From contig JAEZRQ010000001.1 in NCBI GenBank assembly GCA_023444045.1, positions 2,000 through 65,999 of the forward strand: a stretch of DNA of 64,000 nucleotides, in the 5' to 3' direction. Position 1 is the first letter of the stretch, and the number at the start of each line of letters is the position of its first letter. The notes under the pieces are model-generated. The model searched no databases. It was not told the origin of the DNA and worked only from the letters and a program-made list of their open reading frames with translations. Made by a program: the position numbers and the translations under genes. Below, piece by piece: positions 11,839-64,000 of the stretch. This stretch comes from Candidatus Parcubacteria bacterium (GTDB lineage: Bacteria > Patescibacteriota > Patescibacteriia > Patescibacteriales > UBA12465).

Positions 11839-12078
11839 CAACTATGTTAAAAAATGATTAAGCAAGTAGCTTAGTCATTTTTTTATTGGTATAAGTAGTA
11901 TATAAACTGTGGATAACCTGTGATTTTAGTTTTTATTTTTTTATTTTTGTCCACTATGGCCTAGACTTTAAGACTTAAAAAACATAAAATTACACATCAG
12001 GCAAAAGATGTTATTTATTTAATATTAGCTAATATTAATTATTAAACTCAGTTACTTCCTAAAATAAGGGGAAAACTA

Positions 12079-50739: not shown

Positions 50740-52146
50740 ATGTCTTACGATCAAATTTGGCAGGCCGCTTTAGGCGAAATAGAAGTTAATCTATCGCGGG
50801 CTAATTTTATTACTTGGTTTAAAAATACTTTTGTGTCCTTGGTTGAAAATGGCCAGGTAACTGTTTGTGTTCCAAACTCTTTTATCCAAAAATGGCTTGA
50901 AGAAAAATATCACAAGACAATTTTAAGCGCCCTAGAAAATGTTTTAAAACAAAAAGTAATTATTGTTTATAAAGTAGAAGTTAGAAACAACGGCAACCAA
51001 ACAATTATTAACGATAAAAATAGTCACTTAGTTGGCTCATTAAAAGAGAAGTCTCTTACTCCAGAAAATAATAGCAGAGTGGAAGAAAAAAATAACCAAC
51101 CAATTAAGGGGAGTGAAAATAAATTTGGTTTAAATTCTAAGTATGTTTTTGAAAATTTTATTGTAGGAAAAAACAATGAGCTAGCTTATGCCGCCTGTTG
51201 GGCAGTGGTTAATAATTTAGGAAAGGCTTATAACCCTTTATTTATTTATGGTGGGGTAGGGCTAGGAAAAACTCACTTACTACAAGCCATAGGTAATGAG
51301 GTGTCAAAAAAAACTGATCGTATTCTTTATACCACCTCTGAAAAATTTACTAATAATTATATTCAGGCTGTACACTCCGGAAAAGCAAAAGAGTTTAAAA
51401 ATCTTTATCGCAATGTTGATCTCTTTTTAATTGACGATGTTCAATTCATGGGTGGAAAAGATGGTACTCAACAAGAATTTTTTCATACTTTTAACGAACT
51501 ACAACAAGGAGACAAGCAGATTGTCCTAACTTCTGACAGACCACCAAAATCTCTCCCCGCTATTGAGGCTCGTCTAATTTCTCGTTTTGAGTCTGGTATG
51601 GTAGCTGACGTTGGTAAACCGGATATGGAAACCAAAATTGCTATTTTAGAAAAAAAATCAATTGAAAAAGGTTTTCCGTTAAGTTCTGAAATAATAAACC
51701 TACTTGCTAAAAGCGTCCAAAATAATATTAGGGAGCTTGAAGGTGTTTTAAATAAAATTATTGCCGTACACCAAATTAAAAACATCCCCGTAAGCGAGAG
51801 AAGTGTTAAAGAAATTCTGTCTGATTTTATTGCTAATACCCAAACAAAATCTTTGTCTAATAAAGAGGTTATTGATGCTGTTTGTCGTTTTTATGATATT
51901 AGCTCTAAAGATTTAATCGGTAACAGCCGCAAAAAAGAGCTTGTTTGGCCAAGACAAATTGCTATTTATTTAATGAGGGAAGAAGTTAAATCATCCTATC
52001 CTAATATTGGTCATGAAATAGGGGGCAGGGATCACACCACCGCGATGCATGCTTACAATAAAGTTAGCCGAGAAATAAATGAGAATGAAAATGAAAAAAT
52101 AAAACAAGAGTTGGTTTCTATTAAACAACTATTTAACAGTTTATAA
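50740..52146 (+). CDS. dnaA: Chromosomal replication initiator DnaA
   Basis: AAA+ GGVGLGKTHLLQA, LIDDVQF, domain IV (RKKELVWPRQIAIYLMRE...GGRDHTTAMHA). Confidence 0.95.
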   Translation: MSYDQIWQAALGEIEVNLSRANFITWFKNTFVSLVENGQVTVCVPNSFIQKWLEEKYHKTILSALENVLKQKVIIVYKVEVRNNGNQTIINDKNSHLVGSLKEKSLTPENNSRVEEKNNQPIKGSENKFGLNSKYVFENFIVGKNNELAYAACWAVVNNLGKAYNPLFIYGGVGLGKTHLLQAIGNEVSKKTDRILYTTSEKFTNNYIQAVHSGKAKEFKNLYRNVDLFLIDDVQFMGGKDGTQQEFFHTFNELQQGDKQIVLTSDRPPKSLPAIEARLISRFESGMVADVGKPDMETKIAILEKKSIEKGFPLSSEIINLLAKSVQNNIRELEGVLNKIIAVHQIKNIPVSERSVKEILSDFIANTQTKSLSNKEVIDAVCRFYDISSKDLIGNSRKKELVWPRQIAIYLMREEVKSSYPNIGHEIGGRDHTTAMHAYNKVSREINENENEKIKQELVSIKQLFNSL

Positions 52147-52394
52147 CTTGTTAATAAGTAGTTAATAACTAATGAGATCCTGTTAATTAAATTGTGTATT
52201 AAACCTTAAACCTTTGTTAATAAAAAAAGTTGTTAACTTTTAAAACACTTTTACCACACAGCAATTTAAGATTTAATCAACAGAAAAAAATCGGTATTAT
52301 TTTTTAGAGTAAGCCAAAAAATAGCAATAACAATAACTTATACACCCCCTTATTATTGTTATTATTTATATAAATATATATTAAATAATATAAT
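52147..52394. other. Candidate oriC (dnaA-dnaN intergenic region)
   Basis: Five same-orientation (T/A)GTTAAYWW motifs at 52149, 52160, 52181, 52215 and 52231. Their reverse complement, e.g. TTATTAACA, matches the DnaA-box consensus TTATCCACA at up to 7 of 9 positions. A ~55-bp almost pure A/T tract follows at 52340-52394. Confidence 0.55.
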
Positions 52395-53522
52395 ATGAAA
52401 TTAATTAGTGTTCAGGAAAATTTAAAAAAGGGACTACTGACTGTAAGTCATGGAACTGGTAAAAATATTAACTTACCAATTCTTAATAATATTTTAATAA
52501 AGGCTTATAACAACTCTATTGAGCTTATTAGCACTAATTTAGAAATCGGCATTATTTATAAATTAAGAGGTAAGGTTGAAAGAGAGGGTGAATTTACGGT
52601 TGATTCAAAAATTATTACCGAATATGTTAATTTGCTTCCAAGTGAAAACGTGGAGATAGAAGAAATAGGCGGTGAACTTAAAGTAGAGTGTGGTACTTAT
52701 AAAACAAAAATTAAAGGAGAGGCATCAAAAGAGTTCCCTCTTATACCATCAGTTTCTCAAGAAAATTGTTATTCTTGTTCAATAGTTGAATTTAGAAAAG
52801 CTTTAAATAGTGTTTCTTTTGCAGTTTCAAATAGTGAAAATAGGATTGAGTTATCAGGAGTTTTATTTAATTTTGAGGATGAAAAATTAACTCTAGTTGC
52901 AACTGATAGTTATCGTTTAGCTGAAAAAACTATTAATACTAAAACAGAGAATAGTTTTATTAATCAAAAGTTAATTGTCCCCTCTAGAACTGTTCAAGAA
53001 CTTTTAAGAATTTTAAATAATTATAATAATGAGGATGGTGATTTTGAACAAAAAAGTGATGTTAAAATAGCTGTTTCTGATAATCAAATTTTGTTTTTAG
53101 TTGATTCTGTGGAACTTGTTTCCAGATTAATTAATGGTCAATACCCAGATTATCAACAAATTATTCCTGATAAAAGTAAAACAGAGGTGGTGGTAAGTAA
53201 GGCAAACCTTCTAAGAGCAGTAAAAGCGGTAGCAATTTTCTCTAAAACAGGAATTAATGACGTTAACTTAGAATTTAAAGATAATAAGATTATAATATCT
53301 GCTTCATCTGGACAGAGCGGAGAAAGTAGGGCGGACATTGAAGCGGATATTAGTGGCATTGATAATGAAATAGCAATTAACTTCCGGTACTTAGTTGATG
53401 GTTTAAATAATATTAATGCTGATAAAGTACGTTTAAAAATTGTTAGTACTAACACCCCTTGTATTTTAGTGGCCGAACCACAAGATGAATATCTTTATGT
53501 TGTAATGCCAATTAGGCAATAA
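52395..53522 (+). CDS. dnaN: DNA polymerase III beta sliding clamp
   Basis: Three-domain 375-aa protein (LVATDSYRLA, RLINGQYPDYQQIIP, MPIRQ C-terminus) and synteny. Confidence 0.93.
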   Translation: MKLISVQENLKKGLLTVSHGTGKNINLPILNNILIKAYNNSIELISTNLEIGIIYKLRGKVEREGEFTVDSKIITEYVNLLPSENVEIEEIGGELKVECGTYKTKIKGEASKEFPLIPSVSQENCYSCSIVEFRKALNSVSFAVSNSENRIELSGVLFNFEDEKLTLVATDSYRLAEKTINTKTENSFINQKLIVPSRTVQELLRILNNYNNEDGDFEQKSDVKIAVSDNQILFLVDSVELVSRLINGQYPDYQQIIPDKSKTEVVVSKANLLRAVKAVAIFSKTGINDVNLEFKDNKIIISASSGQSGESRADIEADISGIDNEIAINFRYLVDGLNNINADKVRLKIVSTNTPCILVAEPQDEYLYVVMPIRQ

Positions 53523-56803: not shown

Positions 56804-56875
56804 GCGCCCATAGTTCAATGGATAGAACACCAGCCTTCTAAGCTGGTTATGGGGGTTCGATTCCCTCTGGGCGTA
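56804..56875 (+). tRNA. tRNA-Arg (anticodon UCU)
   Basis: Acceptor GCGCCCA/TGGGCGT, anticodon loop CTTCTAA, T arm GGGGGTTCGATTCCCTC. Confidence 0.9.
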
Positions 56876-56896
56876 CTTATAATTAATTTTAATTTT

Positions 56897-57034
56897 ATGG
56901 AAAATAATAATGATAAGCCGTTAACTGAGGAAGAAATTGCTCAGATGGATGCTTTATTTGGCTTTGGTGGTTGTAATTGCAGTACCTGTGATCATGGTTG
57001 TCATGACGAGGCTGAAGAAGGAGAAGACAAATAA
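56897..57034 (+). CDS. Possible 45-aa acidic Cys/His-rich peptide
   Basis: MENNNDKPLTEEEIAQMDALFGFGGCNCSTCDHGCHDEAEEGEDK. The track ORF start at 56849 overlaps tRNA-Arg, so the internal ATG is used. No SD is seen. Confidence 0.3.
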   Translation: MENNNDKPLTEEEIAQMDALFGFGGCNCSTCDHGCHDEAEEGEDK

Positions 57035-57054: not shown

Positions 57055-57129
57055 GGTGCCTATGGTGTAGTGGTAACACAGCAGGTTGTGGTCCTGTTAT
57101 TTCGGGTTCGATTCCCGATAGGCACCCCA
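57055..57129 (+). tRNA. tRNA-His (anticodon GUG) with encoded G-1 and CCA
   Basis: G-1 followed by GTGCCTA/TAGGCAC, C73, CCA; anticodon loop TTGTGGT. A terminator hairpin acgag-tttaaaag-ctcgt plus T-run follows at ~57139-57163. Confidence 0.92.
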
Positions 57130-58574
57130 TTTTGAAAAGACGAGTTTAAAAGCTCGTTTTTTCTGTTATATAAGGGTAAAAATGAGGTTTGCCAGTCTAA
57201 ATTTACCCCTGACGGGAATATTTTGATAGTTTTTATCATTTTTTTAATAAGATTAGCCTTATTTTCGTGGTTTGCCACTTTATAGGCATAAGCGGGATTT
57301 GATAGTAGTTTTGTAAGCTCCTCAATTTTACTAAATGAGGTTTCGTTAGTCCTTTGAAAGTCTTTTATTTGAGAATCAAGGGCACTCTTTTCAAGAATAA
57401 ATTGCTTCTTTTTTTCTTCATAAACATCTTTATCAATCGTTCCTTCTAAAAGATGGTCAGTTAGCTTGCTTAATTTATCATTACAACTAATCACTCTAAG
57501 ATTTAAACTCTGATTCATTTTTTCAAGCTCAAAGACATAAGATTTTTTTAAGTCTTTAGCAATTTTTAATAGTTGGGCGGTTTCTTCTTTATCAAATTTA
57601 ATTTTATCAATTTCATTTAATAATATATCTTCAACTGTGTTCTCAGAGTAGCTTTTTGCTCCACAAGCTTTATTGCGACAATAGTAATATGGATATTTGT
57701 GTTTAGCGGTCATTGATTTTAATGTTTGTCCACATAAACCACAAGTTAAGATGTGTTTAAATTTATAATCGTTTTTATGAGTATGAGGAGTAAATCTTCT
57801 TTGTAAAACATCTTGAACTTTTTTGAATAATTTATCAGAAACAATTGCGGGATGTAGTCCAATATTAAGTTTGCCTTTTATGTCAATGATGCCCATATAG
57901 TATTTATCATTTAAGATTCTACTGATTTTTGTATACTCAATTCTTTTGTTGTTATAGGTTCTCAGACCCTTCTTATACATTTCATCAGCTAGCTCATGAA
58001 GAGTGTATTTACCAGTAGCATATAAATCAAAACATTTTTTAATTAAAGGTGCTGTTATTGGGTCAAGTTCTCTCATGCCAATTCCAGATTTTTTATATCC
58101 TAATAAAACTCTTCCAAAAACTGTATAACCAAGCTCTGCTTTTTTGTTCATACCCTTTTTAGTCTCCTGTGATAAATTAGCAATAAAATCTTCAGCCATT
58201 ACAGCTTTCATAGTACAGGTTAATGAGCCACCTCTACTGTTTAAGTCTGAACCATCACGACTAAAACAAATATTATAACCAGCATTTGATAGCTCTTTTA
58301 TTTTTGCCCAGTCGCTAATAGATCGGCAAGATCTATCTACGTCGTGAAAAATTATTCCCTTAACGCTTTTTGATTTTTTAATTTCCACTAGCATTAAACC
58401 GAACTGCTTTCGACCTTTTTTAGCAGCACTTTGTACTTCACGGAATTCTTTTACAATTTGAAACCCTCTTTCTTTTGCAAATTTTTGATTTGCTTCTTGT
58501 TGAGCTTCAAGGGAAGCCCCTGTTTCTGCTTGGTTTAGAGACGAAACTCTGTAATAGCTATAATATTTATCCAT
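57060..58574 (-). CDS. Large serine recombinase (integrase)
   Basis: N-terminal resolvase domain (YYRVSSLNQ catalytic Ser, HDVDRSCRS), recombinase domain, zinc ribbon (CGLCGQTL...YYYCRNKAC) and coiled coil. The last ~23 codons are antisense to tRNA-His. Confidence 0.85.
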   Translation of the reverse strand: MDKYYSYYRVSSLNQAETGASLEAQQEANQKFAKERGFQIVKEFREVQSAAKKGRKQFGLMLVEIKKSKSVKGIIFHDVDRSCRSISDWAKIKELSNAGYNICFSRDGSDLNSRGGSLTCTMKAVMAEDFIANLSQETKKGMNKKAELGYTVFGRVLLGYKKSGIGMRELDPITAPLIKKCFDLYATGKYTLHELADEMYKKGLRTYNNKRIEYTKISRILNDKYYMGIIDIKGKLNIGLHPAIVSDKLFKKVQDVLQRRFTPHTHKNDYKFKHILTCGLCGQTLKSMTAKHKYPYYYCRNKACGAKSYSENTVEDILLNEIDKIKFDKEETAQLLKIAKDLKKSYVFELEKMNQSLNLRVISCNDKLSKLTDHLLEGTIDKDVYEEKKKQFILEKSALDSQIKDFQRTNETSFSKIEELTKLLSNPAYAYKVANHENKANLIKKMIKTIKIFPSGVNLDWQTSFLPLYNRKNELLNSSFQNGVPIGNRTRNNRTTTCCVTTTP

Positions 58575-58643
58575 ATATTTATAGGTGATTAAATAGGGAT
58601 TTATTTATCATATTTTAATTAGATTAATGACTACCTTAAAAAG

Positions 58644-59387
58644 CTATCGTAAAATCAACTCAACCGCTGACTGATATCTTTCACCCTTGTAAGAGATTAG
58701 ACCCTTTTTATAAATTGGATTACTTAAAATCTTTTTAATTGTTGATGGACTCCACTTCTCGTTTCCTCTCTTAGTCGGGATACTTAAATCCGTTAAAGTA
58801 TTAGCAATTATTTTTAGGGACTTCTTTTTTCTTTTTAGATTAAATATCAACATAATCGTTTTAGCTTCTTGTTGGTTAATTACTAAGTTGCCCTCATTGT
58901 TGTCATAACCATAAATTTTACCACCATGCCAACCACCATTTTTAGCCTTTCTTTCTCTACCACCTTCAAGTCTTAAAGCGATCATTGCTCTTTCAAATTC
59001 AGAGAATACACCAAGCATTTGTCTAAACGCCTTTCTGAAAGGATCGCTACTGTCTAAATCAGGCTCAAGAGCTGAAATTAATTGCTTCTCATTTTTATTA
59101 AACTCTTTTATCAAACCCTCTTGAATATATAAATCTCTTGCTAACCTATCTAACTTATAGATGATTATATGTTCCGCTTCTGTGTTGTTTAATAAATCAA
59201 GAAGATTTTTTAATCCTGGTCTATCGCTTAATCCACCACTGAACCCATCATCTGAAAATTCTTCAATAATCAGGTATTCATTTTTGATAGCAAATTCTCT
59301 GACCTTCATTTTTTGAACTTCAATTGTTCCTTCTTCTTTTTGAAGATCAGTTGATACACGATAATAGGCAAGTGCTTTTTTTGTCAT
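58644..59387 (-). CDS. Serine recombinase, short form (resolvase domain plus partial recombinase domain, no zinc ribbon)
   Basis: YYRVSTDLQ catalytic Ser, YKLDRLARD, FSEFERAMIALRLEGG, then WSPSTIKKILSNPIYKG, a recombinase-domain motif. Confidence 0.8.
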   Translation of the reverse strand: MTKKALAYYRVSTDLQKEEGTIEVQKMKVREFAIKNEYLIIEEFSDDGFSGGLSDRPGLKNLLDLLNNTEAEHIIIYKLDRLARDLYIQEGLIKEFNKNEKQLISALEPDLDSSDPFRKAFRQMLGVFSEFERAMIALRLEGGRERKAKNGGWHGGKIYGYDNNEGNLVINQQEAKTIMLIFNLKRKKKSLKIIANTLTDLSIPTKRGNEKWSPSTIKKILSNPIYKKGLISYKGERYQSAVELILR

Positions 59388-59540
59388 AGATTTTTGATTA
59401 GGGATGATTAGAAATGCTTATAATATAAGACGCAAATCAAAAAATCTAAATGTCTCAATAATAAATCGTGTAGCTATACAGGAAAAATATACGTGGTAAT
59501 TCTGTTTTTTAGTTTTTTATAACCCTTATATATTAAAAAT

Positions 59541-60722
59541 CTAAAAAGCAGAATTTATAGTATAGAATTTCTTATTTTTTTCTTTTGTCTCTACTATTAT
59601 TTTTTGTTCGTTCTCAAGAGTTTTTAAAATCTTTAACAAGACATTTTTTCCAATAGTTCCTTGAAATTGTTTACTTAAATCCTCTTGAGTTATTGGAGAA
59701 TCACTTTCTTCTATAAAAGACAGAACAGAATCTTGTTGATGTAGTGTTTTAATTTGTTGGTTATGAGTATCTTCAGAATAACCTTTAAAAACAAAATTTA
59801 ATTTATCTTCTTCTTGGGTTGGAGAAATAATAAATGGTTTGAGTTCTGGTTGGATGCGATTTTTTGTTTGGTTAATTATTAAATCATTACCAACTCTTTT
59901 TATCATCATCTGACATTCTAGTGCGGCTAAAATATCAACAGAGCCACGCATCATTTGATTGCCATAATTTTGATTATCTTGACCCTTTCGATTATGGTGA
60001 TTTATAAGAACCGTTATTCCTTTTTCTTTTAATACAGATATTTTACGGAACAAACTCGACATATCTTTAGCACTATTTTCATCACCAGAGTGAATTCTAA
60101 TTAAACTATCAATAATAAGAACTTTAATTTTTCTTCTTGTTAATTCGCTTAATAACATTTCGATATTTTCATAGTTATCAGCCATAAAACCAGTCATAAT
60201 ACTAAAACTAAGATTGGTATCTCCGTCATCTCCTAATTTAATCAACCTGTCTTTTATTAATTTGTCTGAATCCTCTTCATCGATTATTAAGACATTTGAT
60301 TTTTTTACGTTAAAAACGCCGAAGACGGGCTCACCTTTAGAAATACATAAAGCAAAATATAAAGTTAGCCAAGTTTTAAAACTCCCTGGTTTTGCAGAAA
60401 GAATGTTTATTGATCCTTCTGGTAAGATGTCTTGTATAATCCAATCTTGATGTATATCAGATGTTATTAATGTTTTACTAGACTGTATTTTAAGAGGATT
60501 ATTTTTTGCGTTTAATTTTAATATCCTTTTTCTATTTTTAATTTCTTGTCTGACTAATTGTTTTAAAGCACCCATTTTTAGCGGGCTATTAATTGCTTGA
60601 TTTAATCCTTTTAAATATCTAACAACTGTTTTAAAATCAGTATTATCAACCAAATCAATAACATGAGGAATAATTTTTTTAATATCCATATTATTAAGAC
60701 TTAAAATATTTATTAATAGCAT
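59541..60722 (-). CDS. RepA/AAA_25-like RecA-fold ATPase with C-terminal winged-helix (replication or mobilisation protein)
   Basis: P-loop-like SAKPGSFKT, VLIIDSLIRIHSGDENSAKDM (Walker B region typical of the RepA/KaiC-like fold), NHHNRKG. An alternative start lies at 60689. Confidence 0.6.
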   Translation of the reverse strand: MLLINILSLNNMDIKKIIPHVIDLVDNTDFKTVVRYLKGLNQAINSPLKMGALKQLVRQEIKNRKRILKLNAKNNPLKIQSSKTLITSDIHQDWIIQDILPEGSINILSAKPGSFKTWLTLYFALCISKGEPVFGVFNVKKSNVLIIDEEDSDKLIKDRLIKLGDDGDTNLSFSIMTGFMADNYENIEMLLSELTRRKIKVLIIDSLIRIHSGDENSAKDMSSLFRKISVLKEKGITVLINHHNRKGQDNQNYGNQMMRGSVDILAALECQMMIKRVGNDLIINQTKNRIQPELKPFIISPTQEEDKLNFVFKGYSEDTHNQQIKTLHQQDSVLSFIEESDSPITQEDLSKQFQGTIGKNVLLKILKTLENEQKIIVETKEKNKKFYTINSAF

Positions 60723-60930
60723 CTTTAGCTATTTCGTGGGCATAAAAAATATCATCCTCAACTGGACAGTAAAAATCTCTATCAATTGTTCGGTACTCTT
60801 TTTTATGATCAAGTTTGATAAAGATCATATAGTTGTGAGGAATTTTTGTTATTGAGTAGTTTTTACTATCAAATAACAAAATACCAATTCTTTTTTGTCT
60901 TGCTCTTTCAAGCGCTTGTAGTTTGTTCAT
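60694..60930 (-). CDS. Hypothetical protein (78 aa) of the mobile element
   Basis: ORF only. Positioned directly upstream of the ATPase. Confidence 0.4.
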   Translation of the reverse strand: MNKLQALERARQKRIGILLFDSKNYSITKIPHNYMIFIKLDHKKEYRTIDRDFYCPVEDDIFYAHEIAKDAINKYFKS

Positions 60931-60939
60931 AGGTTTTGC

Positions 60940-61023
60940 GGGTTAATTAGATAATTTTATTGCTCGAAAATATCCAAGATTATCTCGACATATTCTATGA
61001 GGTTTTGATTATCTAATTTACCC
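60940..61023. repeat. 16-bp inverted repeat pair flanking a 52-bp spacer
   Basis: gggttaattagataat (60940-60955) versus the reverse complement of attatctaatttaccc (61008-61023), 15/16 match. Each arm is preceded by aggttttg. Confidence 0.7.
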
Positions 61024-61096
61024 ATAAAAAAATAGACTTAATTTCTTAAGTCTATTTTAACGAGTTTCAATATTGATACCGTGACATTTGTTGGTG

Positions 61097-61858
61097 TTAA
61101 CAAATGTTTGATATTTTATCTTTAAATCTTTTTTTTCTTTGTCTTAAAGTTGAGAGAGATTTGTTTTTTACTTTTTTATTATCATCAAGATTAAAAACGT
61201 CTAATGCGTCATAACCATCTAATTTATCCTGATATACCTCTTTATCTTTACTATAAAGTTTACTTGCTCTGTCCCTTCCTTTTTTATAATTGTTCATATT
61301 CTTTTGAAAGAAATTCATGACAGATAATAACTCTTCCACATCTTTTTTTGTCGCATTTGGTCCACACCTTATTACCATATTCCCATATCGATCCCTCGTT
61401 AATTGAGCTTCTTTTGTTTCGGGAATAAATAAGTTGTTAAATAGAATATAATGGACAATTCCCGGGAATGGTTTTTCATTTATTAAATGATAAAAAGTTC
61501 TTTCATTTTCTAAATAGTATAAATCAGTTGGATAATTATCATTAGTTTCAGGATCAGTTAAGCAATTATAAACCTTATTTAAAAATATACTTGGGTTAGT
61601 TTTTATTATTTTTGTATTTTTTATTGAAAGATCTTTAAAGTTATTAGCCTTATTATTTATTATCCATTCTTTAAAATCCTTAGAGATAGTTTTGAATCCT
61701 TTTTTTGGTATAAGCCATTTGCTTCTTATTCGTTTAATATCCTCAATAAAAGAATCATTAAGAGTCACTTTTTCAAATAACTGTTCCATAGCACTTATTA
61801 CTGATTTATTGCGAATATTTATTTTTATATCATTGTCTTTATCCATATTTTTATCCAC
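61097..61858 (-). CDS. Hypothetical protein (253 aa) of the mobile element
   Basis: ORF with its own minus-strand terminator (~61031-61056). No motif recognised. Confidence 0.5.
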   Translation of the reverse strand: MDKNMDKDNDIKINIRNKSVISAMEQLFEKVTLNDSFIEDIKRIRSKWLIPKKGFKTISKDFKEWIINNKANNFKDLSIKNTKIIKTNPSIFLNKVYNCLTDPETNDNYPTDLYYLENERTFYHLINEKPFPGIVHYILFNNLFIPETKEAQLTRDRYGNMVIRCGPNATKKDVEELLSVMNFFQKNMNNYKKGRDRASKLYSKDKEVYQDKLDGYDALDVFNLDDNKKVKNKSLSTLRQRKKRFKDKISNIC

Positions 61859-61924
61859 TTCGTTAAAACGGAGTGTATGAATTAACTTATATTTATAGTT
61901 TAAAGCCTATAAAAATAAGCGTCA

Positions 61925-61953
61925 ATAAAAGAGGGTAACTGACTGATACCCTC
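61925..61953 (-). terminator. Intrinsic terminator after the four-gene cargo operon
   Basis: On the minus strand, gagggta-tcagtcagt-taccctc followed by ttttatt. Confidence 0.7.
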
Positions 61954-62012
61954 TCTTTCGGACTTACACAAAGTGTAAAATCGTTCTTAAGCTTCTTAGA
62001 GAATTTTGTGAA

Positions 62013-62387
62013 CTATCGATTTAAGCCATTTTTATATAAACATAAATTTAAACGAACATCCACTGCTTCCGCCTGATCTGTTGTGATGTTATTTTCCTTA
62101 GTCCAAGAAGAAACCTCGTAAGCACAATTTACTCTAATTTTTGTAGGTCTAGTGCTAAACCAATAAAAACAAAAACCCGAAATAAGAATAATAACTATAA
62201 ACAAAGAGATGCTAACTTTTTCTTGCTTCATATAATTTCGTAAAATAAGGATAATTAAAAAGCTTAATAAAATAGAGATAAAAATCATTTGTAGAATTTG
62301 ATTAGAAACAATCCAGTTAGCTAAAGGAGATAACTCATCGCCATTTAAAGCCACGCCTTTTATCAGTGTTTTAAAGAATAAAGACAT
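62013..62387 (-). CDS. Hypothetical membrane protein (124 aa, 2-3 TM)
   Basis: Hydrophobic segments. 1-nt gap to the upstream gene. Confidence 0.5.
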   Translation of the reverse strand: MSLFFKTLIKGVALNGDELSPLANWIVSNQILQMIFISILLSFLIILILRNYMKQEKVSISLFIVIILISGFCFYWFSTRPTKIRVNCAYEVSSWTKENNITTDQAEAVDVRLNLCLYKNGLNR

Positions 62388-62388
62388 A

Positions 62389-62658
62389 CTATTTTTTTGT
62401 TAAATTTATATAATTTAAGGCATTTGTTAAATTAGCAATTCCATTTTTAGCATATTCTTCTCCTTTTGTTTTTAGCCAATAATCACCAACATCTTTATAT
62501 CCTAATTTCTCAGCCATCAAGTTTACCTCTTTAATTAATAGAGTTGTTGTAATGTAAATAGAGGCGTCTCCTTGTCCCCTTGCTCTTCCTCCCCAAGAAG
62601 CTACAAAAATAGCGGTTATAATTGCCGTAATTATGGCTGTTAAAATAATAGGTAGCAT
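62389..62658 (-). CDS. Hypothetical N-terminally anchored protein (89 aa)
   Basis: TM with internal AIITAIITAI repeat, then a soluble region. Confidence 0.5.
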   Translation of the reverse strand: MLPIILTAIITAIITAIFVASWGGRARGQGDASIYITTTLLIKEVNLMAEKLGYKDVGDYWLKTKGEEYAKNGIANLTNALNYINLTKK

Positions 62659-62676
62659 AGTTTTATTAAATTTATT

Positions 62677-63363
62677 TTATAAATTATTTTTTATTACTTC
62701 TAAAATTTCTTGATTTGATAAATCGTCAATACCACATCCAGGAATTGATCCAAAAACATCTTTTATAAAAACAAAAATATAATCTGACCCAATAAGATCG
62801 CCAGATTCTTTTAATTCATAAATACTAAAAATTGCCTTGGTTTTAGATTGGTCCGGTTCTTTATTATTATTTTTTGTAATAATTAAAAATGTTTTATTAT
62901 TTGTTTGTGCTATTTTTAAAACTTTACCTCCATTGCACCCCATTATTTCACTAATTAAAAAATCTCTTTCAAAGTCTAAGATTTTTTTATCCTTATTTTC
63001 TTTAGTTACAATATTCCAATTACTACTCTTTTTGATAAAGAAATTATAAACATCAGTATTAGCGTTTGTGTGATAATCATAATAATCAGCCCCAACAATA
63101 TGAGAAACAAAGACGTTGTCATCAGTTCCATCAAAGTTTAAATCGATATAATTATTACCAGGAGCAAAAGAATATATTTTTATTTTGTCATCCTCTTGTT
63201 CTAATAACGCTTTAGAACTTGTTTTAGTTGGCTCAAATTGCTCTGGCTTATTTTGGATATCCTTTTTTTGATTTATTAAATAATATCCAAGAGAAGTTAT
63301 AAAAAATAAAACAATCAAGCCAATAAAAATTAAAAGATATTTTTTATTTATTTTTTCTGTCAT
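62677..63363 (-). CDS. Hypothetical N-terminally anchored extracytoplasmic protein (228 aa)
   Basis: One TM followed by a ~190-aa beta-rich domain containing a DLNFDGTDDNVF (calcium-binding-like) segment. Confidence 0.5.
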   Translation of the reverse strand: MTEKINKKYLLIFIGLIVLFFITSLGYYLINQKKDIQNKPEQFEPTKTSSKALLEQEDDKIKIYSFAPGNNYIDLNFDGTDDNVFVSHIVGADYYDYHTNANTDVYNFFIKKSSNWNIVTKENKDKKILDFERDFLISEIMGCNGGKVLKIAQTNNKTFLIITKNNNKEPDQSKTKAIFSIYELKESGDLIGSDYIFVFIKDVFGSIPGCGIDDLSNQEILEVIKNNL

Positions 63364-63782
63364 ATATTTTTAATTCTAGTTTCATTAAAGCTATTTATAT
63401 TATTTAAAATATCAGCGACAGAAACATTATTTTTTATTATCAACCAGTTTAATTTTGAAATTCTTGAATAAATATATTCAATTTCGTAAGAATTTTGATT
63501 TAAACCTTCTTTTAAATAAACAACAACGATATCATTTTTTAATTCAGATTCTTTTGTTCTGAAATCTTCTAACAAATTATCTCTACTTATAGATAAGTAG
63601 TCGTTAGGCATTATATGATGCTTAATAAAAATAATATCTTGACCGCTTTTTATAGCTTCAAGATATTTTTCTTCGTAATTATTTGGTTGAGTATTTTTGC
63701 TCACAATAAATGAGCTTGCCTTTGAGATGTCTTCAGCTAGATTTTTAATAGATTCTTCTTGTCCTATTAATAGTAAAATCAT
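63360..63782 (-). CDS. Hypothetical cytoplasmic protein (140 aa), first gene of the cargo operon
   Basis: ORF with a 4-nt overlap onto the next gene. No motif recognised. Confidence 0.5.
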   Translation of the reverse strand: MILLLIGQEESIKNLAEDISKASSFIVSKNTQPNNYEEKYLEAIKSGQDIIFIKHHIMPNDYLSISRDNLLEDFRTKESELKNDIVVVYLKEGLNQNSYEIEYIYSRISKLNWLIIKNNVSVADILNNINSFNETRIKNI

Positions 63783-64000
63783 ATTTAGCTAATTATAGCT
63801 TAATTATTATTACGCAAATTTTAAAAAGTAAATAGCTAAGCCGTATACAGTCCTATTTTCAAGAAAAACAGCTTAGCAATAGGGTAAGACATAAAACAGG
63901 GCAAACGGCTCAAATTTGACTGTATAGGCCGTGAATATGAGCTGATTTTAGATTATATAGAGGAAGATATCTCTTCCCAATAAAAAAACGGACACCCGAC

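What the first reader, a model, noticed from the sequence alone, without database searches (positions are those of the whole stretch)
57130..64000. AT-rich integrated element at tRNA-His with two serine recombinases and a RepA-like ATPase
From the 3' end of tRNA-His to the window edge, all ORFs switch to the minus strand and the sequence becomes visibly more A+T-rich than the flanking core genes (trmH-family, PBP1A). The module order is: large serine recombinase (504 aa), short serine recombinase (247 aa), RecA-fold RepA/AAA_25-like ATPase with a winged helix, two orphan ORFs, and a four-gene orphan operon. No phage structural genes and no conjugation genes are seen. This suggests a small integrative plasmid-like element rather than a prophage. 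Mobile elements are rarely characterised in CPR-like genomes, and a tandem large-plus-small serine recombinase pair is unusual.
Basis: partly seen in the sequence, partly recalled or inferred. Interest (0 to 1): 0.6.

Follow-up and report, generated by a model that had tools for sequence, protein, structure and literature searches.

The report
Serine-recombinase mobile island at tRNA-His
This is a real 13.2-kb mobile DNA island in a tiny-genome (Patescibacteria/CPR) bacterium, inserted by a large serine recombinase into the last six bases of the tRNA-His gene, and it belongs to a so far undescribed family that targets tRNA and tmRNA gene ends, which serine integrases are rarely seen to do.

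Summary
The window holds the first 6.9 kb of a 13,230-bp island (window 57130 to window-equivalent 70359), whose far end was recovered from the parent contig.

- **Composition.** The island has 28.5% G+C against 33.7% for the core, and its tetranucleotide z-scores are 5-8.
- **Same site, three occupants.** Chromosomes identical up to the last tRNA-His base carry three different occupants. These are this island, a variant that is 7% divergent, and an unrelated island with a 25%-identical LSR and a Type III R-M system.
- **Boundaries.** The window island and the unrelated island, the two whose far ends were recovered, are bounded by ACCCCA, the 3' end of the tRNA including its encoded CCA.
- **Conserved core.** RepA-like helicase, then a 247-aa serine recombinase, then a 504-aa LSR whose ORF runs across the junction into the tRNA. 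This core recurs in other Patescibacteria at tRNA-His (3 more genomes) and at tmRNA (1).
- **LSR family.** At least 22 of the 26 closest LSR clusters end in antisense-tRNA tails.
- **The small recombinase** is a real, highly conserved protein. It is an LSR without the zinc-ribbon and coiled-coil domain, not a fragment.
- **Gene content.** There are no phage or conjugation genes. The cargo beyond the window is ABC-3C-like defence genes.

Excision, replication and the role of the small recombinase are inferred, not shown. The closest analogue is the tycheposon. I rate it a new variant of a known kind.

The parts
57056..57129 (+). tRNA-His (GTG) with genomically encoded CCA. It forms the chromosomal (B) half of attL and stays intact after insertion.
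   Evidence: ARAGORN. Rfam tRNA at 63 bits over 57056-57126. 100% identical in the sibling strain up to base 57129.
57124..57129 (.). ACCCCA, the overlap (crossover) core. It is the only sequence shared by the left and right junctions of both alternative islands.
   Evidence: attL and attR of the window island and the sibling island compared. The same 6-mer sits at the junction of the sibling-type island at a non-tRNA site.
57130..57209 (.). Element-side P' arm of attL. It supplies a replacement terminator hairpin for tRNA-His (57134-57163) and at the same time encodes, on the minus strand, the last conserved residues of the LSR (...WQTSFLPLYNRKNELLNSSFQNGV).
   Evidence: Terminator-like hairpin of 13 pairs. 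The arm is conserved in L042 and L044. The first strain difference is at 57133.
57060..58574 (-). Large serine recombinase (integrase), 504 aa. The ORF crosses attL, so its last 23 codons are antisense tRNA-His. The predicted excised form is 500 aa with a different tail.
   Evidence: Pfam domain trio. AF2 model at pLDDT 81 with a coiled coil at 329-425 and a disordered tail at 476-504. Invariant S11, R9, D80, R81, R84 and four Cys. dN/dS 0.11 against the strain variant. Tail swap computed.
58644..59387 (-). Small serine recombinase, 247 aa. It has a catalytic domain, the alpha-E helix and a recombinase (RD) domain, with no zinc ribbon or coiled coil. It is the most conserved gene of the module.
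   Evidence: 497 homologues at E <= 1e-10; of the 120 listed, most are 244-267 aa (range 215-281). Catalytic residues are invariant. AF2 pLDDT 85. Best Foldseek matches are the N-terminal halves of the SPbeta, Bxb1 and A118 integrases. 83/75/52% identity to partners in L042/L044/L048, against 62/59/30% for the LSR.
59541..60722 (-). RepA-like (RecA-fold, AAA_25) putative replicative helicase with a C-terminal winged helix.
   Evidence: Pfam AAA_25 1.9e-29 and TBPIP winged helix 2.8e-6. RSF1010 RepA 1g8y at E = 1.2e-4. PHROG primase/helicase families. The homologue in L048 is fused to Prim-Pol.
59388..59540 (-). Conserved non-coding leader, with a promoter-like sequence, upstream of the operon of the small and large recombinases.
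   Evidence: CATTTAGATTTTTT.ATTTGCGTCTTATATTATAA is conserved in the window, L042 and L044. Promoter-like match at 59450-59422.
60694..60930 (-). 78-aa backbone ORF overlapping the start of the helicase gene. Function unknown.
   Evidence: No family hit. 42-47% identical ORFs in the same position in L042 and L044.
61097..61858 (-). 253-aa backbone ORF. Function unknown.
   Evidence: No family hit. 66% identical ORF in the same position in L042.
62013..63782 (-). Four-ORF block (140, 228, 89 and 124 aa), mostly predicted membrane or small proteins. Function unknown.
   Evidence: ORFs. No significant family hit. The 89-aa ORF is 82% conserved and the 124-aa ORF partly conserved in L042.
63783..64000 (.). 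Start of the divergent intergenic region. Beyond the window (equivalent 64272-70306) lie the cargo genes SMEK_N/CTD10, MC6 and DUF2326 (ABC-3C-like), a 186-aa orphan, DUF4236, a 207-aa orphan and DUF5677. attR follows at about 70325-70359.
   Evidence: The parent contig L001/L035 is identical to the window over 10,641 nt. Gene table. PADLOC hits PDC-M68B and LmuB. attR.

Best explanation
**What it is.** The window holds the left 6.9 kb of a 13,230-bp integrative mobile element in a Patescibacteria (Falkowbacteria-related) chromosome, about 5 kb from dnaA and dnaN.

**How it inserted.** The element entered by site-specific recombination catalysed by its terminal large serine recombinase (LSR). 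The partners were an attP that overlaps the 3' end of the LSR gene and the last six bases (ACCCCA, including the encoded CCA) of tRNA-His. The element's P' arm supplies a new terminator hairpin, so the tRNA gene stays intact. Integration swaps the last ~20 non-conserved, disordered residues of the LSR for antisense-tRNA codons.

**Backbone (inferred functions).**
- A RepA-like helicase (fused to a primase-polymerase in relatives) that would replicate the excised circle.
- A 247-aa serine recombinase without a zinc ribbon. It most likely acts as an accessory or second recombinase, either resolving multimers of the circle or working with the LSR at the asymmetric att sites.
- Small conserved orphan ORFs.

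**Cargo.** The distal half carries defence genes (ABC-3C-like).

**The site.** It is a recurrent hot spot. New elements land next to the remains of older ones, leaving attR-like scars.

**Shown versus inferred.** Shown are the boundaries, the alternative occupants, domain content, family-wide t(m)RNA targeting and purifying selection. Inferred are the LSR as the acting enzyme, the exact dinucleotide, excision, replication, the role of the small recombinase, and the route of cell-to-cell transfer (no transfer genes; perhaps DNA uptake).
For: **Boundaries**
- The parent contig is identical to the window.
- The sibling strain is 100% identical up to base 57129. It then differs, and is identical again from ACCCCATTTGG....
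- A third strain has 0/2,637 differences left of 57130 and 160/2,214 right of it.

**Site without an LSR element**
- Contig L039 joins a tRNA-His directly to the right flank.
- A related species has conserved flanks and no recombinase.

**Composition:**

**LSR**
- Pfam domain trio.
- Invariant catalytic residues and Cys.
- Coiled coil in the model.
- dN/dS 0.11.

**Family trait**
- The helicase, small-recombinase and LSR module abuts tRNA-His in L042 and L044 and tmRNA in L048. In L132 the two recombinases abut tRNA-His, but the gene upstream (456 aa) has no family hit.
- At least 22 of 26 LSR clusters with >= 44% identity end in GNRT-type antisense-tRNA tails.
- A conserved ~55-nt P arm is found as attR and as scars in several genomes.

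**Not phage, not conjugative:**

**Helicase:**

**Precedents**
- attP inside the 3' end of a serine integrase gene (PMC4701971).
- Integrase plus replication elements at tRNA/tmRNA genes (10.1101/2020.12.28.424599).
Against: - There is no direct evidence of excision or of a circular form. The predicted circular-form LSR proteins (500 and 521 aa) are absent from a 15-billion-protein collection. Every LSR variant seen is in an integrated state.
- The only contig that lacks an LSR element at this site (L039) has a diverged left flank and a 99.8% identical right flank. It could be a chimeric assembly or a recombinant.
- The present target is tRNA-His plus the P'-like arm of an older remnant, which is formally an attL-like site. 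Canonical LSRs do not use such a site for integration.
- The reconstructed attP shows no clear inverted-repeat symmetry around ACCCCA.
- The small recombinase family also occurs without any LSR in a non-CPR-looking contig, so its link to the LSR is not obligatory.
- Strain-level island swapping could also happen by homologous recombination of the conserved flanks.
Confidence: 0.8

Rival explanations
1. A fixed or decaying genomic island. The block arrived once by site-specific integration but is no longer mobile, and the recombinases are relics or have been put to another use.
For: No circular-form protein variant or attP contig was found. Scars of dead elements are common at this locus. One assembly (L014) shows indels in the LSR.
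Against: The LSR, small recombinase and helicase are intact in several strains. LSR dN/dS is 0.11. Three different occupants sit in chromosomes that are identical base for base up to the junction, which implies recent turnover. The L014 indels look like assembly errors in a low-coverage contig.
Confidence: 0.1
2. The islands are exchanged mainly by uptake of DNA and homologous recombination through the conserved flanks (tRNA-His on one side, the 99-aa-ORF remnant on the other). The LSR plays no part in present-day turnover.
For: Flanks are identical between strains with different islands. L039 has a mosaic structure. The right flank is itself a remnant that resembles the P' arm of the element. 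Natural competence of CPR bacteria is widely assumed (general knowledge, not tested here).
Against: Divergence starts within 4 nt of the tRNA end, and the two unrelated islands share only ACCCCA at both ends. The sibling-type island occurs at a non-tRNA site with the same 6-mer at the junction. The LSR always sits at the very junction in the window and in all five related loci examined.
Confidence: 0.15
3. A phage satellite or cryptic prophage remnant (PICI-like) that relies on a helper virus for packaging and transfer.
For: The helicase matches phage primase/helicase PHROGs. Relatives of the small recombinase (<= 47% identity) occur in IMG/VR contigs. The size and the layout of integrase plus replication module resemble satellites and PICI-like tycheposons (10.1101/2020.12.28.424599).
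Against: No capsid, terminase, portal, tail, packaging or lysis family hit in any of the 16 ORFs across 13.2 kb. The closest IMG/VR loci have no tRNA and none of the fetched viral loci contains the P-arm motif.
Confidence: 0.07
4. The 247-aa recombinase, not the LSR, is the enzyme that integrates the element (as in phiRSM-type small serine integrases). The LSR would then have another role.
For: It is the most conserved gene of the module. Its family is much larger than the LSR family. It can occur without an LSR in a small island elsewhere.
Against: The sibling-type island integrates at the same core with a lone LSR and no small recombinase. The gene whose 3' end overlaps attP in every case is the LSR. 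LSR tails track the tRNA across the family.
Confidence: 0.05

Closest known systems
Tycheposons of Prochlorococcus (Hackl et al., bioRxiv 10.1101/2020.12.28.424599)
   Same: - Small integrative elements in a streamlined genome that lacks conjugation machinery.
- A site-specific integrase at the end next to a tRNA or tmRNA gene.
- An autonomous-replication module (primase/helicase) and variable cargo that includes defence genes.
- Islands built by repeated insertion at the same tRNA, leaving remnants.
- A minority (27 of 937) use a large serine recombinase, and small serine recombinases are among the linked hallmark genes.
   Different: - The host phylum is different (Patescibacteria).
- Here the serine recombinase is the rule for the whole family rather than the exception.
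- A fixed order of helicase, small recombinase and LSR.
- Only a 6-nt overlap instead of a ~40-nt partial tRNA repeat.
- Homology of the hallmark genes to tycheposon profiles was not tested.
- Excision, induction and packaging are shown for tycheposons and not here.
Streptococcal ICEs with a single serine integrase targeting rumA (Ambroset et al. 2016, PMC4701971)
   Same: - The attachment site lies inside the 3' end of the serine integrase gene.
- Integration therefore swaps the C-terminal tail of the integrase.
- Flanking repeats are very short (2-21 bp).
   Different: - Those are conjugative elements that target a protein-coding gene and change its 3' end.
- This element has no conjugation genes and targets a tRNA, which it restores exactly.
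SCCmec ccrA/ccrB cassette chromosome recombinases (general knowledge)
   Same: - Two adjacent serine recombinase genes on a non-conjugative, non-phage island.
- The island inserts at the extreme 3' end of a conserved RNA-related housekeeping gene.
   Different: - CcrA and CcrB are both full-length LSRs.
- Here the second protein lacks the zinc-ribbon and coiled-coil domain.
- The target is rlmH, not a tRNA.
- No sequence relationship was tested.
Actinomycete integrative elements of the pSAM2/SLP1 type (PMC2440964)
   Same: Elements of 10-17 kb integrated at the 3' end of tRNA genes, able to replicate after excision, with the integrase at the element end.
   Different: They use tyrosine integrases with long identity segments, and they encode a Tra (FtsK-like) transfer protein. 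Neither is present here.

Membership tests
Large serine recombinase / serine integrase (504-aa protein) | N-terminal resolvase-type catalytic domain with the nucleophilic serine and conserved Arg/Asp residues | tested here: met
   PF00239 at 83.5 bits against a cutoff of 23.3. R9, S11, Q15, D80, R81 and R84 are invariant in 26 homologues.
Large serine recombinase / serine integrase (504-aa protein) | Recombinase domain (RD) followed by a zinc-ribbon domain with an embedded antiparallel coiled coil | tested here: met
   PF07508 at 62.1 bits and PF13408 at 40.6 bits. C278, C281, C299 and C304 are invariant. The AF2 model shows helices 329-377 and 382-425 between zinc-ribbon strands.
Large serine recombinase / serine integrase (504-aa protein) | Recombination between short attP and attB sites at a central dinucleotide, leaving almost no flanking repeat | tested here: inconclusive
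   Junction comparison limits the exchange to ACCCCA (6 nt; 7 nt for the window island). The dinucleotide, and the half-site symmetry expected of att sites, could not be identified.
Large serine recombinase / serine integrase (504-aa protein) | Catalytic activity, and directionality controlled by a recombination directionality factor | not testable with these tools
   No RDF candidate could be named. The 78-aa and 253-aa backbone ORFs have no family hit.
Classical small serine recombinases (resolvase/invertase, Tn3/gamma-delta/Hin type), for the 247-aa protein | Catalytic domain followed by a short C-terminal helix-turn-helix (HTH_7-type) DNA-binding domain | tested here: not met
   The catalytic domain is present (117 bits). 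The C-terminal part is an LSR-type recombinase domain: PF07508 at 49.8 bits, and Foldseek alignment to SPbeta, Bxb1 and A118 integrase residues up to about 260. It works like a serine recombinase but is not a resolvase/invertase-type protein.
Tycheposon-like integrative replicative element | Site-specific integrase at the element terminus, next to a tRNA or tmRNA gene that stays intact | tested here: met
Tycheposon-like integrative replicative element | Genes for autonomous replication (primase and/or helicase) | tested here: met
   AAA_25 RepA-like helicase, with a Prim-Pol fusion in a relative. Replication itself is not shown.
Tycheposon-like integrative replicative element | Demonstrated excision and circular intermediates, and homology to the tycheposon hallmark gene clusters | not tested
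   No read data or tycheposon profiles are available here. The exact look-up of predicted circular-form proteins was negative.
Prophage / phage satellite | Virion, packaging or capsid-interference genes | tested here: not met
   No such Pfam or PHROG hit in any ORF of the island.
Integrative conjugative or mobilizable element | Relaxase, coupling protein, type IV secretion genes or an FtsK-like Tra protein | tested here: not met
   None among the Pfam hits for the 16 ORFs.
SCCmec-type ccrAB pair | Two full-length large serine recombinases acting together at the 3' end of rlmH | tested here: not met
   The second recombinase lacks the zinc ribbon and coiled coil. The target is tRNA-His.

The most novel reading that the evidence does not exclude
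The conserved pair is a new two-protein serine integrase. In this reading the 247-aa recombinase (catalytic domain plus RD only, with no zinc ribbon or coiled coil) joins the full-length LSR in mixed tetramers. It would occupy particular half-sites of the strongly asymmetric att sites, namely the tRNA acceptor/T-arm side or the long conserved P arm. That would allow insertion into t(m)RNA gene ends and even into attL-like sites left by earlier elements, which canonical LSRs cannot do. It would make this a distinct mechanism of target choice and directionality control, and a source of tRNA-targeting integrases for streamlined genomes.
Probability: 0.2. Interest if true: 0.8.

Novelty: new variant of a known kind. 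Interest (0 to 1): 0.6.

Why it matters
**1. Serine integrases at tRNA genes.** Serine integrases are thought to avoid tRNA genes. A survey of 2,168 genomes found t(m)RNA use in 4.9% of serine-integrase islands. It noted that such use had not been reported before and needs experimental proof (PMC7192596). Here a whole LSR family is dedicated to the 3' end of tRNA-His, with a relative at tmRNA. The junctions are base-precise and the attP and attB sequences can be predicted and tested directly.

**2. Mobile elements in Patescibacteria.** Few mobile elements are characterised in Patescibacteria/CPR, and no paper in the searched library combines these organisms with serine recombinases and integrative elements. 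This locus shows how such reduced genomes swap defence systems at one hot spot next to the replication origin: ABC-3C-like in one strain and Type III R-M in another.

**3. A new recombinase class to study.** The small recombinase is an LSR without a zinc ribbon. It is widespread and more conserved than its LSR partner, and it is uncharacterised.

**4. Possible tools.** Compact LSRs with defined short sites are wanted as genome-engineering tools.

Tried and rejected
- **Metagenome scan with the right-flank flavodoxin-like protein.** It found only relatives at <= 47% identity, so it gave no empty sites. The same aim was reached through an exact-protein look-up instead.
- **IMG/VR scan with the small-recombinase profile.** The best hits were 47% and 43% identical. 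The top three loci have no tRNA, and none of the fetched viral loci contains the P-arm motif, so there is no evidence of a viral or excised form.
- **Exact look-up of the predicted circular-form LSR proteins.** They are not in the collection.
- **Length variants in the LSR clusters.**
  - Those in the window LSR's cluster turned out to be integrated states in tRNA-His variants.
  - Of those in the sibling-type LSR's cluster, the 512-aa one (P0227) lies at a non-tRNA site, and the 489-aa ones were not placed. None has the predicted circular-form tail.
- **Promoter scan.** It was not enriched over shuffles and was used only descriptively.
- **PADLOC and PHROGs on the orphan ORFs.** Nothing was found.
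- **Rfam on the island.** It found only the two tRNAs.
- **Repeat search in the tmRNA-associated relative (L048).** It found no attR-like repeat.
- **Search for res-like repeats upstream of the small recombinase.** It found only a conserved promoter-like leader.
- **Rejected idea.** I considered that the 247-aa protein was a truncated pseudogene of a second LSR. I rejected this because of its conserved length, invariant catalytic residues and high conservation.
- **One invalid result.** One dN/dS comparison (the PBP1A fragment) was misaligned and is disregarded.

Full report
**Observation.**
- 57060-58574(-), 504 aa: Resolvase, Recombinase and Zn_ribbon_recom, all far above Pfam cutoffs.
- 58644-59387(-), 247 aa: Resolvase and part of Recombinase.
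- 59541-60722(-), 393 aa: AAA_25 plus a winged helix.
- Six ORFs without family hits follow.

tRNA-Arg(tct) and tRNA-His(gtg) lie at 56804-56876 and 57056-57129. trmH, PBP1A, dnaN and dnaA lie upstream. The compositional shift is moderate but significant. The in-window part has 28.4% G+C. Equal-sized windows elsewhere average 33.6% (sd 1.0) and never fall below 31.1%. Tetranucleotide distance reaches z = 5-8 inside the block and returns to background after it. One detail was missed: the 504-aa ORF ends at 57060, so its last 70 nt are the reverse complement of the entire tRNA-His gene.

**Extending the locus.** An exact-protein look-up found the parent contig (ENA ERZ27268862 k141_11516, 291 kb). 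It is identical to the window over the 10,641-nt overlap. Beyond the window the block continues on the + strand with these genes:
- SMEK_N/CTD10, MC6 and DUF2326, the Pfam families of ABC-3C conflict systems. PADLOC hits are PDC-M68B and LmuB.
- A 186-aa orphan, DUF4236, a 207-aa orphan and DUF5677.

Five small ORFs follow, then a flavodoxin-like gene and YibE_F.

**Boundaries.** A sibling genome (ERZ28596700 scaffold_17) encodes identical TrmH and flavodoxin-like proteins.
- It is identical base for base in the aligned stretch from the end of trmH through the last base of tRNA-His (…GGCACCCCA, window 57129). After that it is unrelated.
- It becomes identical again from ACCCCATTTGGAAAAGACGAG…, at window-equivalent 70355.
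- Between these points the window genome has 13,230 bp. The sibling has about 10.1 kb with a different LSR (496 aa, 25% identical), a Type III restriction-modification pair, an HTH_17 protein, SpoVG and a SocA_Panacea-family protein.
- The only sequence common to the left and right junctions of both islands is ACCCCA. This is the last acceptor-stem bases, the discriminator and the encoded CCA of tRNA-His.

A third assembly (L010) has no difference in the 2,637 nt left of 57130 and 160 differences in the 2,214 nt to its right. The first difference is at 57133. One chromosomal background therefore carries a 7%-diverged variant of the same element.

A related species (Ca. Falkowbacteria MAG, TrmH 63% identical) keeps trmH, tRNA-Arg, tRNA-His, the flavodoxin-like gene and YibE_F. 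It has 4.8 kb of unrelated ORFs and no recombinase between them.

A short JGI contig (L039) joins a tRNA-His directly to the right flank. Its right part is 99.84% identical to the window genome. Its left part is diverged, and its tRNA-His is identical to that of the Falkowbacteria MAG. It is therefore either a recombinant strain or a chimeric contig. I use it only as weak support.

**Anatomy of the junctions.**
- *P' arm.* Just inside the element (57130-57209) lies a 13-pair terminator hairpin that serves tRNA-His. On the other strand it encodes the last conserved residues of the LSR.
- *P arm.* The far end of the element is a ~55-nt non-coding arm: AATTTACCAAATATTCCATCAAAAAAGTTTTCCAA-N-TTT-N5-TTAGCC, followed by ACCCCA.
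- *Scars.* The same arm, with small changes, appears at these places:
  - a second time 461 nt further on, after a 99-aa ORF;
  - twice in each of two other genomes that carry related elements;
  - twice in the recombinase-free Falkowbacteria locus;
  - next to the flavodoxin-like gene in two more relatives.
- *An older remnant as target.* The chromosomal sequence that now follows the element is identical over 43 nt to the P' arm of a related element (L042). It then shows decayed similarity to the 3' end of an LSR gene.

The locus is therefore an old, repeatedly used insertion site, and new elements have landed beside the remnants of older ones.

**The recombinases.**
- *The LSR.* It has all defining parts. 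The catalytic residues and four zinc-ribbon cysteines are invariant in 26 homologues. The predicted structure (pLDDT 81) has a long antiparallel coiled coil at 329-425. The last 29 residues, which are the part encoded by the hairpin and the tRNA, are disordered. Between the two element variants its dS is 0.30 and dN/dS is 0.11.
- *Tail swap.* Because the ORF crosses the junction, the excised form would encode a 500-aa protein ending …QNGVAKRKGWKTFLMEYLVN instead of …QNGVPIGNRTRNNRTTTCCVTTTP. The same arrangement is described for streptococcal ICEs that target rumA (PMC4701971).
- *The 247-aa protein.* It is not a fragment.
  - 497 homologues were found at E <= 1e-10; of the 120 listed, most are 244-267 aa.
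  - The catalytic motifs are invariant.
  - The model (pLDDT 85) matches the catalytic domain, alpha-E helix and RD portion of the SPbeta, Bxb1 and A118 integrases.
  - It is thus an LSR lacking the zinc ribbon and coiled coil.

**Family context.** Look-ups of homologues gave five further loci.
- In four of them the small recombinase is directly followed by an LSR that abuts or overlaps a t(m)RNA 3' end:
  - tRNA-His in L042, which is the same chromosomal locus in a relative;
  - tRNA-His in L044/L047 and in L132, which have different neighbourhoods;
  - tmRNA in L048.
- In three of those four loci (L042, L044 and L048) an AAA_25 gene precedes the small recombinase, once fused to Prim-Pol. In L132 the preceding gene (456 aa) has no family hit.
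- Identity to the window proteins in L042, L044 and L048 is 83/75/52% for the small recombinase, 62/59/30% for the LSR and 55/36/32% for the helicase.
- Among LSR clusters at >= 44% identity, at least 22 of 26 end in tails such as …GV(P/A)(I/R)GNRT…TT…. These are antisense translations of a tRNA T-arm and a His anticodon stem. One more ends exactly at tRNA-His.
- Eighteen LSR clusters share their longest-contig length with a small-recombinase cluster. This is indirect evidence of co-occurrence.
- A more distant member of the small-recombinase family (50% identical) occurs without any LSR, in a contig that does not look like CPR. The pairing is therefore typical of this element family but not obligatory for the protein family.

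**Mechanism proposed.**
- *Shown.* This is a discrete, compositionally foreign block. It is bounded by a 6-nt repeat at the tRNA-His end and is replaceable by other blocks at the same base. It has intact recombinases under purifying selection, and its LSR family is tied to t(m)RNA 3' ends.
- *Inferred.*
  - The LSR catalyses attP x attB exchange within ACCCCA.
  - The element excises to a circle that the RepA-like helicase helps replicate. RSF1010 RepA is the only solved relative, and there are PHROG primase/helicase matches.
  - The small recombinase is an accessory or second recombinase.
  - The distal half is defence cargo.
- *Unknown.* The transfer route. There are no phage structural, packaging or conjugation genes.

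**Difficulties.**
- No excised form was found.
- The present target is formally an attL-like hybrid of the tRNA and an old P' arm.
- The reconstructed attP lacks obvious dyad symmetry.
- Swapping of islands through homologous recombination of the flanks cannot be excluded as a parallel route.

**Comparison with known systems.**
- *Architecture.* It works most like the tycheposons of Prochlorococcus. These have an integrase plus replication genes plus cargo at tRNA/tmRNA genes, remnants in tandem, a few with LSRs, and small serine recombinases among the linked genes (10.1101/2020.12.28.424599).
- *attP within the integrase gene.* This matches the rumA-targeting streptococcal ICEs (PMC4701971).
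- *Two serine recombinases.* This resembles ccrAB of SCCmec and the serine-integrase triplets of ICEs, but the second protein here is of a different, shorter type.
- *tRNA targeting.* Use of t(m)RNA genes by serine integrases was rare (14 of 297) and called unreported and unproven in the TIGER survey (PMC7192596).
- *Prior description.* No paper in the searched library links Patescibacteria with serine recombinases and integrative elements (related searches).

**Verdict.** The element is a new variant of a known kind: an LSR-driven, tycheposon-like integrative element family of Patescibacteria. It is specific for the 3' end of tRNA-His (and tmRNA) and has a conserved LSR-like partner recombinase that lacks the zinc ribbon. 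Interest is moderate to high (0.6).

Noticed in passing
window 56849-57034 (+): A tiny acidic, Cys/His-rich ORF (45-61 aa, …GGCNCSTCDHGCHDEAEEGEDK) sits between tRNA-Arg and tRNA-His. A different but similarly Cys/His-rich ORF occupies the same place in contig L039. It may be a small metal-binding peptide.
   Followed up: no
L129 8990-9120 (also L130, L131): The sibling-type island (Type III R-M, HTH_17, SpoVG, LSR about 90% identical to the sibling's) also occurs beside a Peptidase_M48 gene, with no tRNA nearby. Its junction reads …CTACGTG-ACCCCA-AGAGTGA…, so the same 6-nt core is used at a non-tRNA site. This shows that the element type has moved between contexts.
   Followed up: partly
L035 7542-8070 (window-equivalent 70355-70883): A 461-bp unit holding one 99-aa membrane-protein ORF with its own promoter-like site, flanked by an attL-like and an attR-like site. 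It is either the stub of an older element or a non-autonomous mini-element that the LSR could mobilise in trans. It is present in all strains, including the contig that lacks an LSR element.
   Followed up: partly
L016 11204-14640: The Falkowbacteria MAG has no recombinase at tRNA-His but carries two P-arm scars (at 12046 and 14580). The first lies after a 214-aa HD/PDEase-like ORF and the second after further ORFs (TrmB-like and orphans). They are relics of the same element family in another species.
   Followed up: partly
L035 16929-20567 compared with L036: There is a second strain-variable spot about 9 kb downstream of the island. After a radical-SAM gene, the window genome has a TrmB-like regulator and orphan ORFs, where the sibling has SHMT and FolD.
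   Followed up: no
L007, L008, L009 (contig ends 74-105 nt after trmH): Three independent assemblies break inside tRNA-Arg(tct), just upstream of the hot spot. This suggests population heterogeneity or repeat-induced assembly breaks there.
   Followed up: no
window 50740-53522: dnaA and dnaN lie about 5 kb from the island, with rpmH, rnpA, yidD and yidC further on in the parent contig. The hot spot therefore sits next to the presumed replication origin.
   Followed up: no
L134 8001-8753: A 50%-identical member of the small-recombinase family stands alone (no LSR) in a small island with a truncated tyrosine integrase. The contig has OmpA and Peptidase_S15 genes, so it is probably not a CPR organism.
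   Followed up: no
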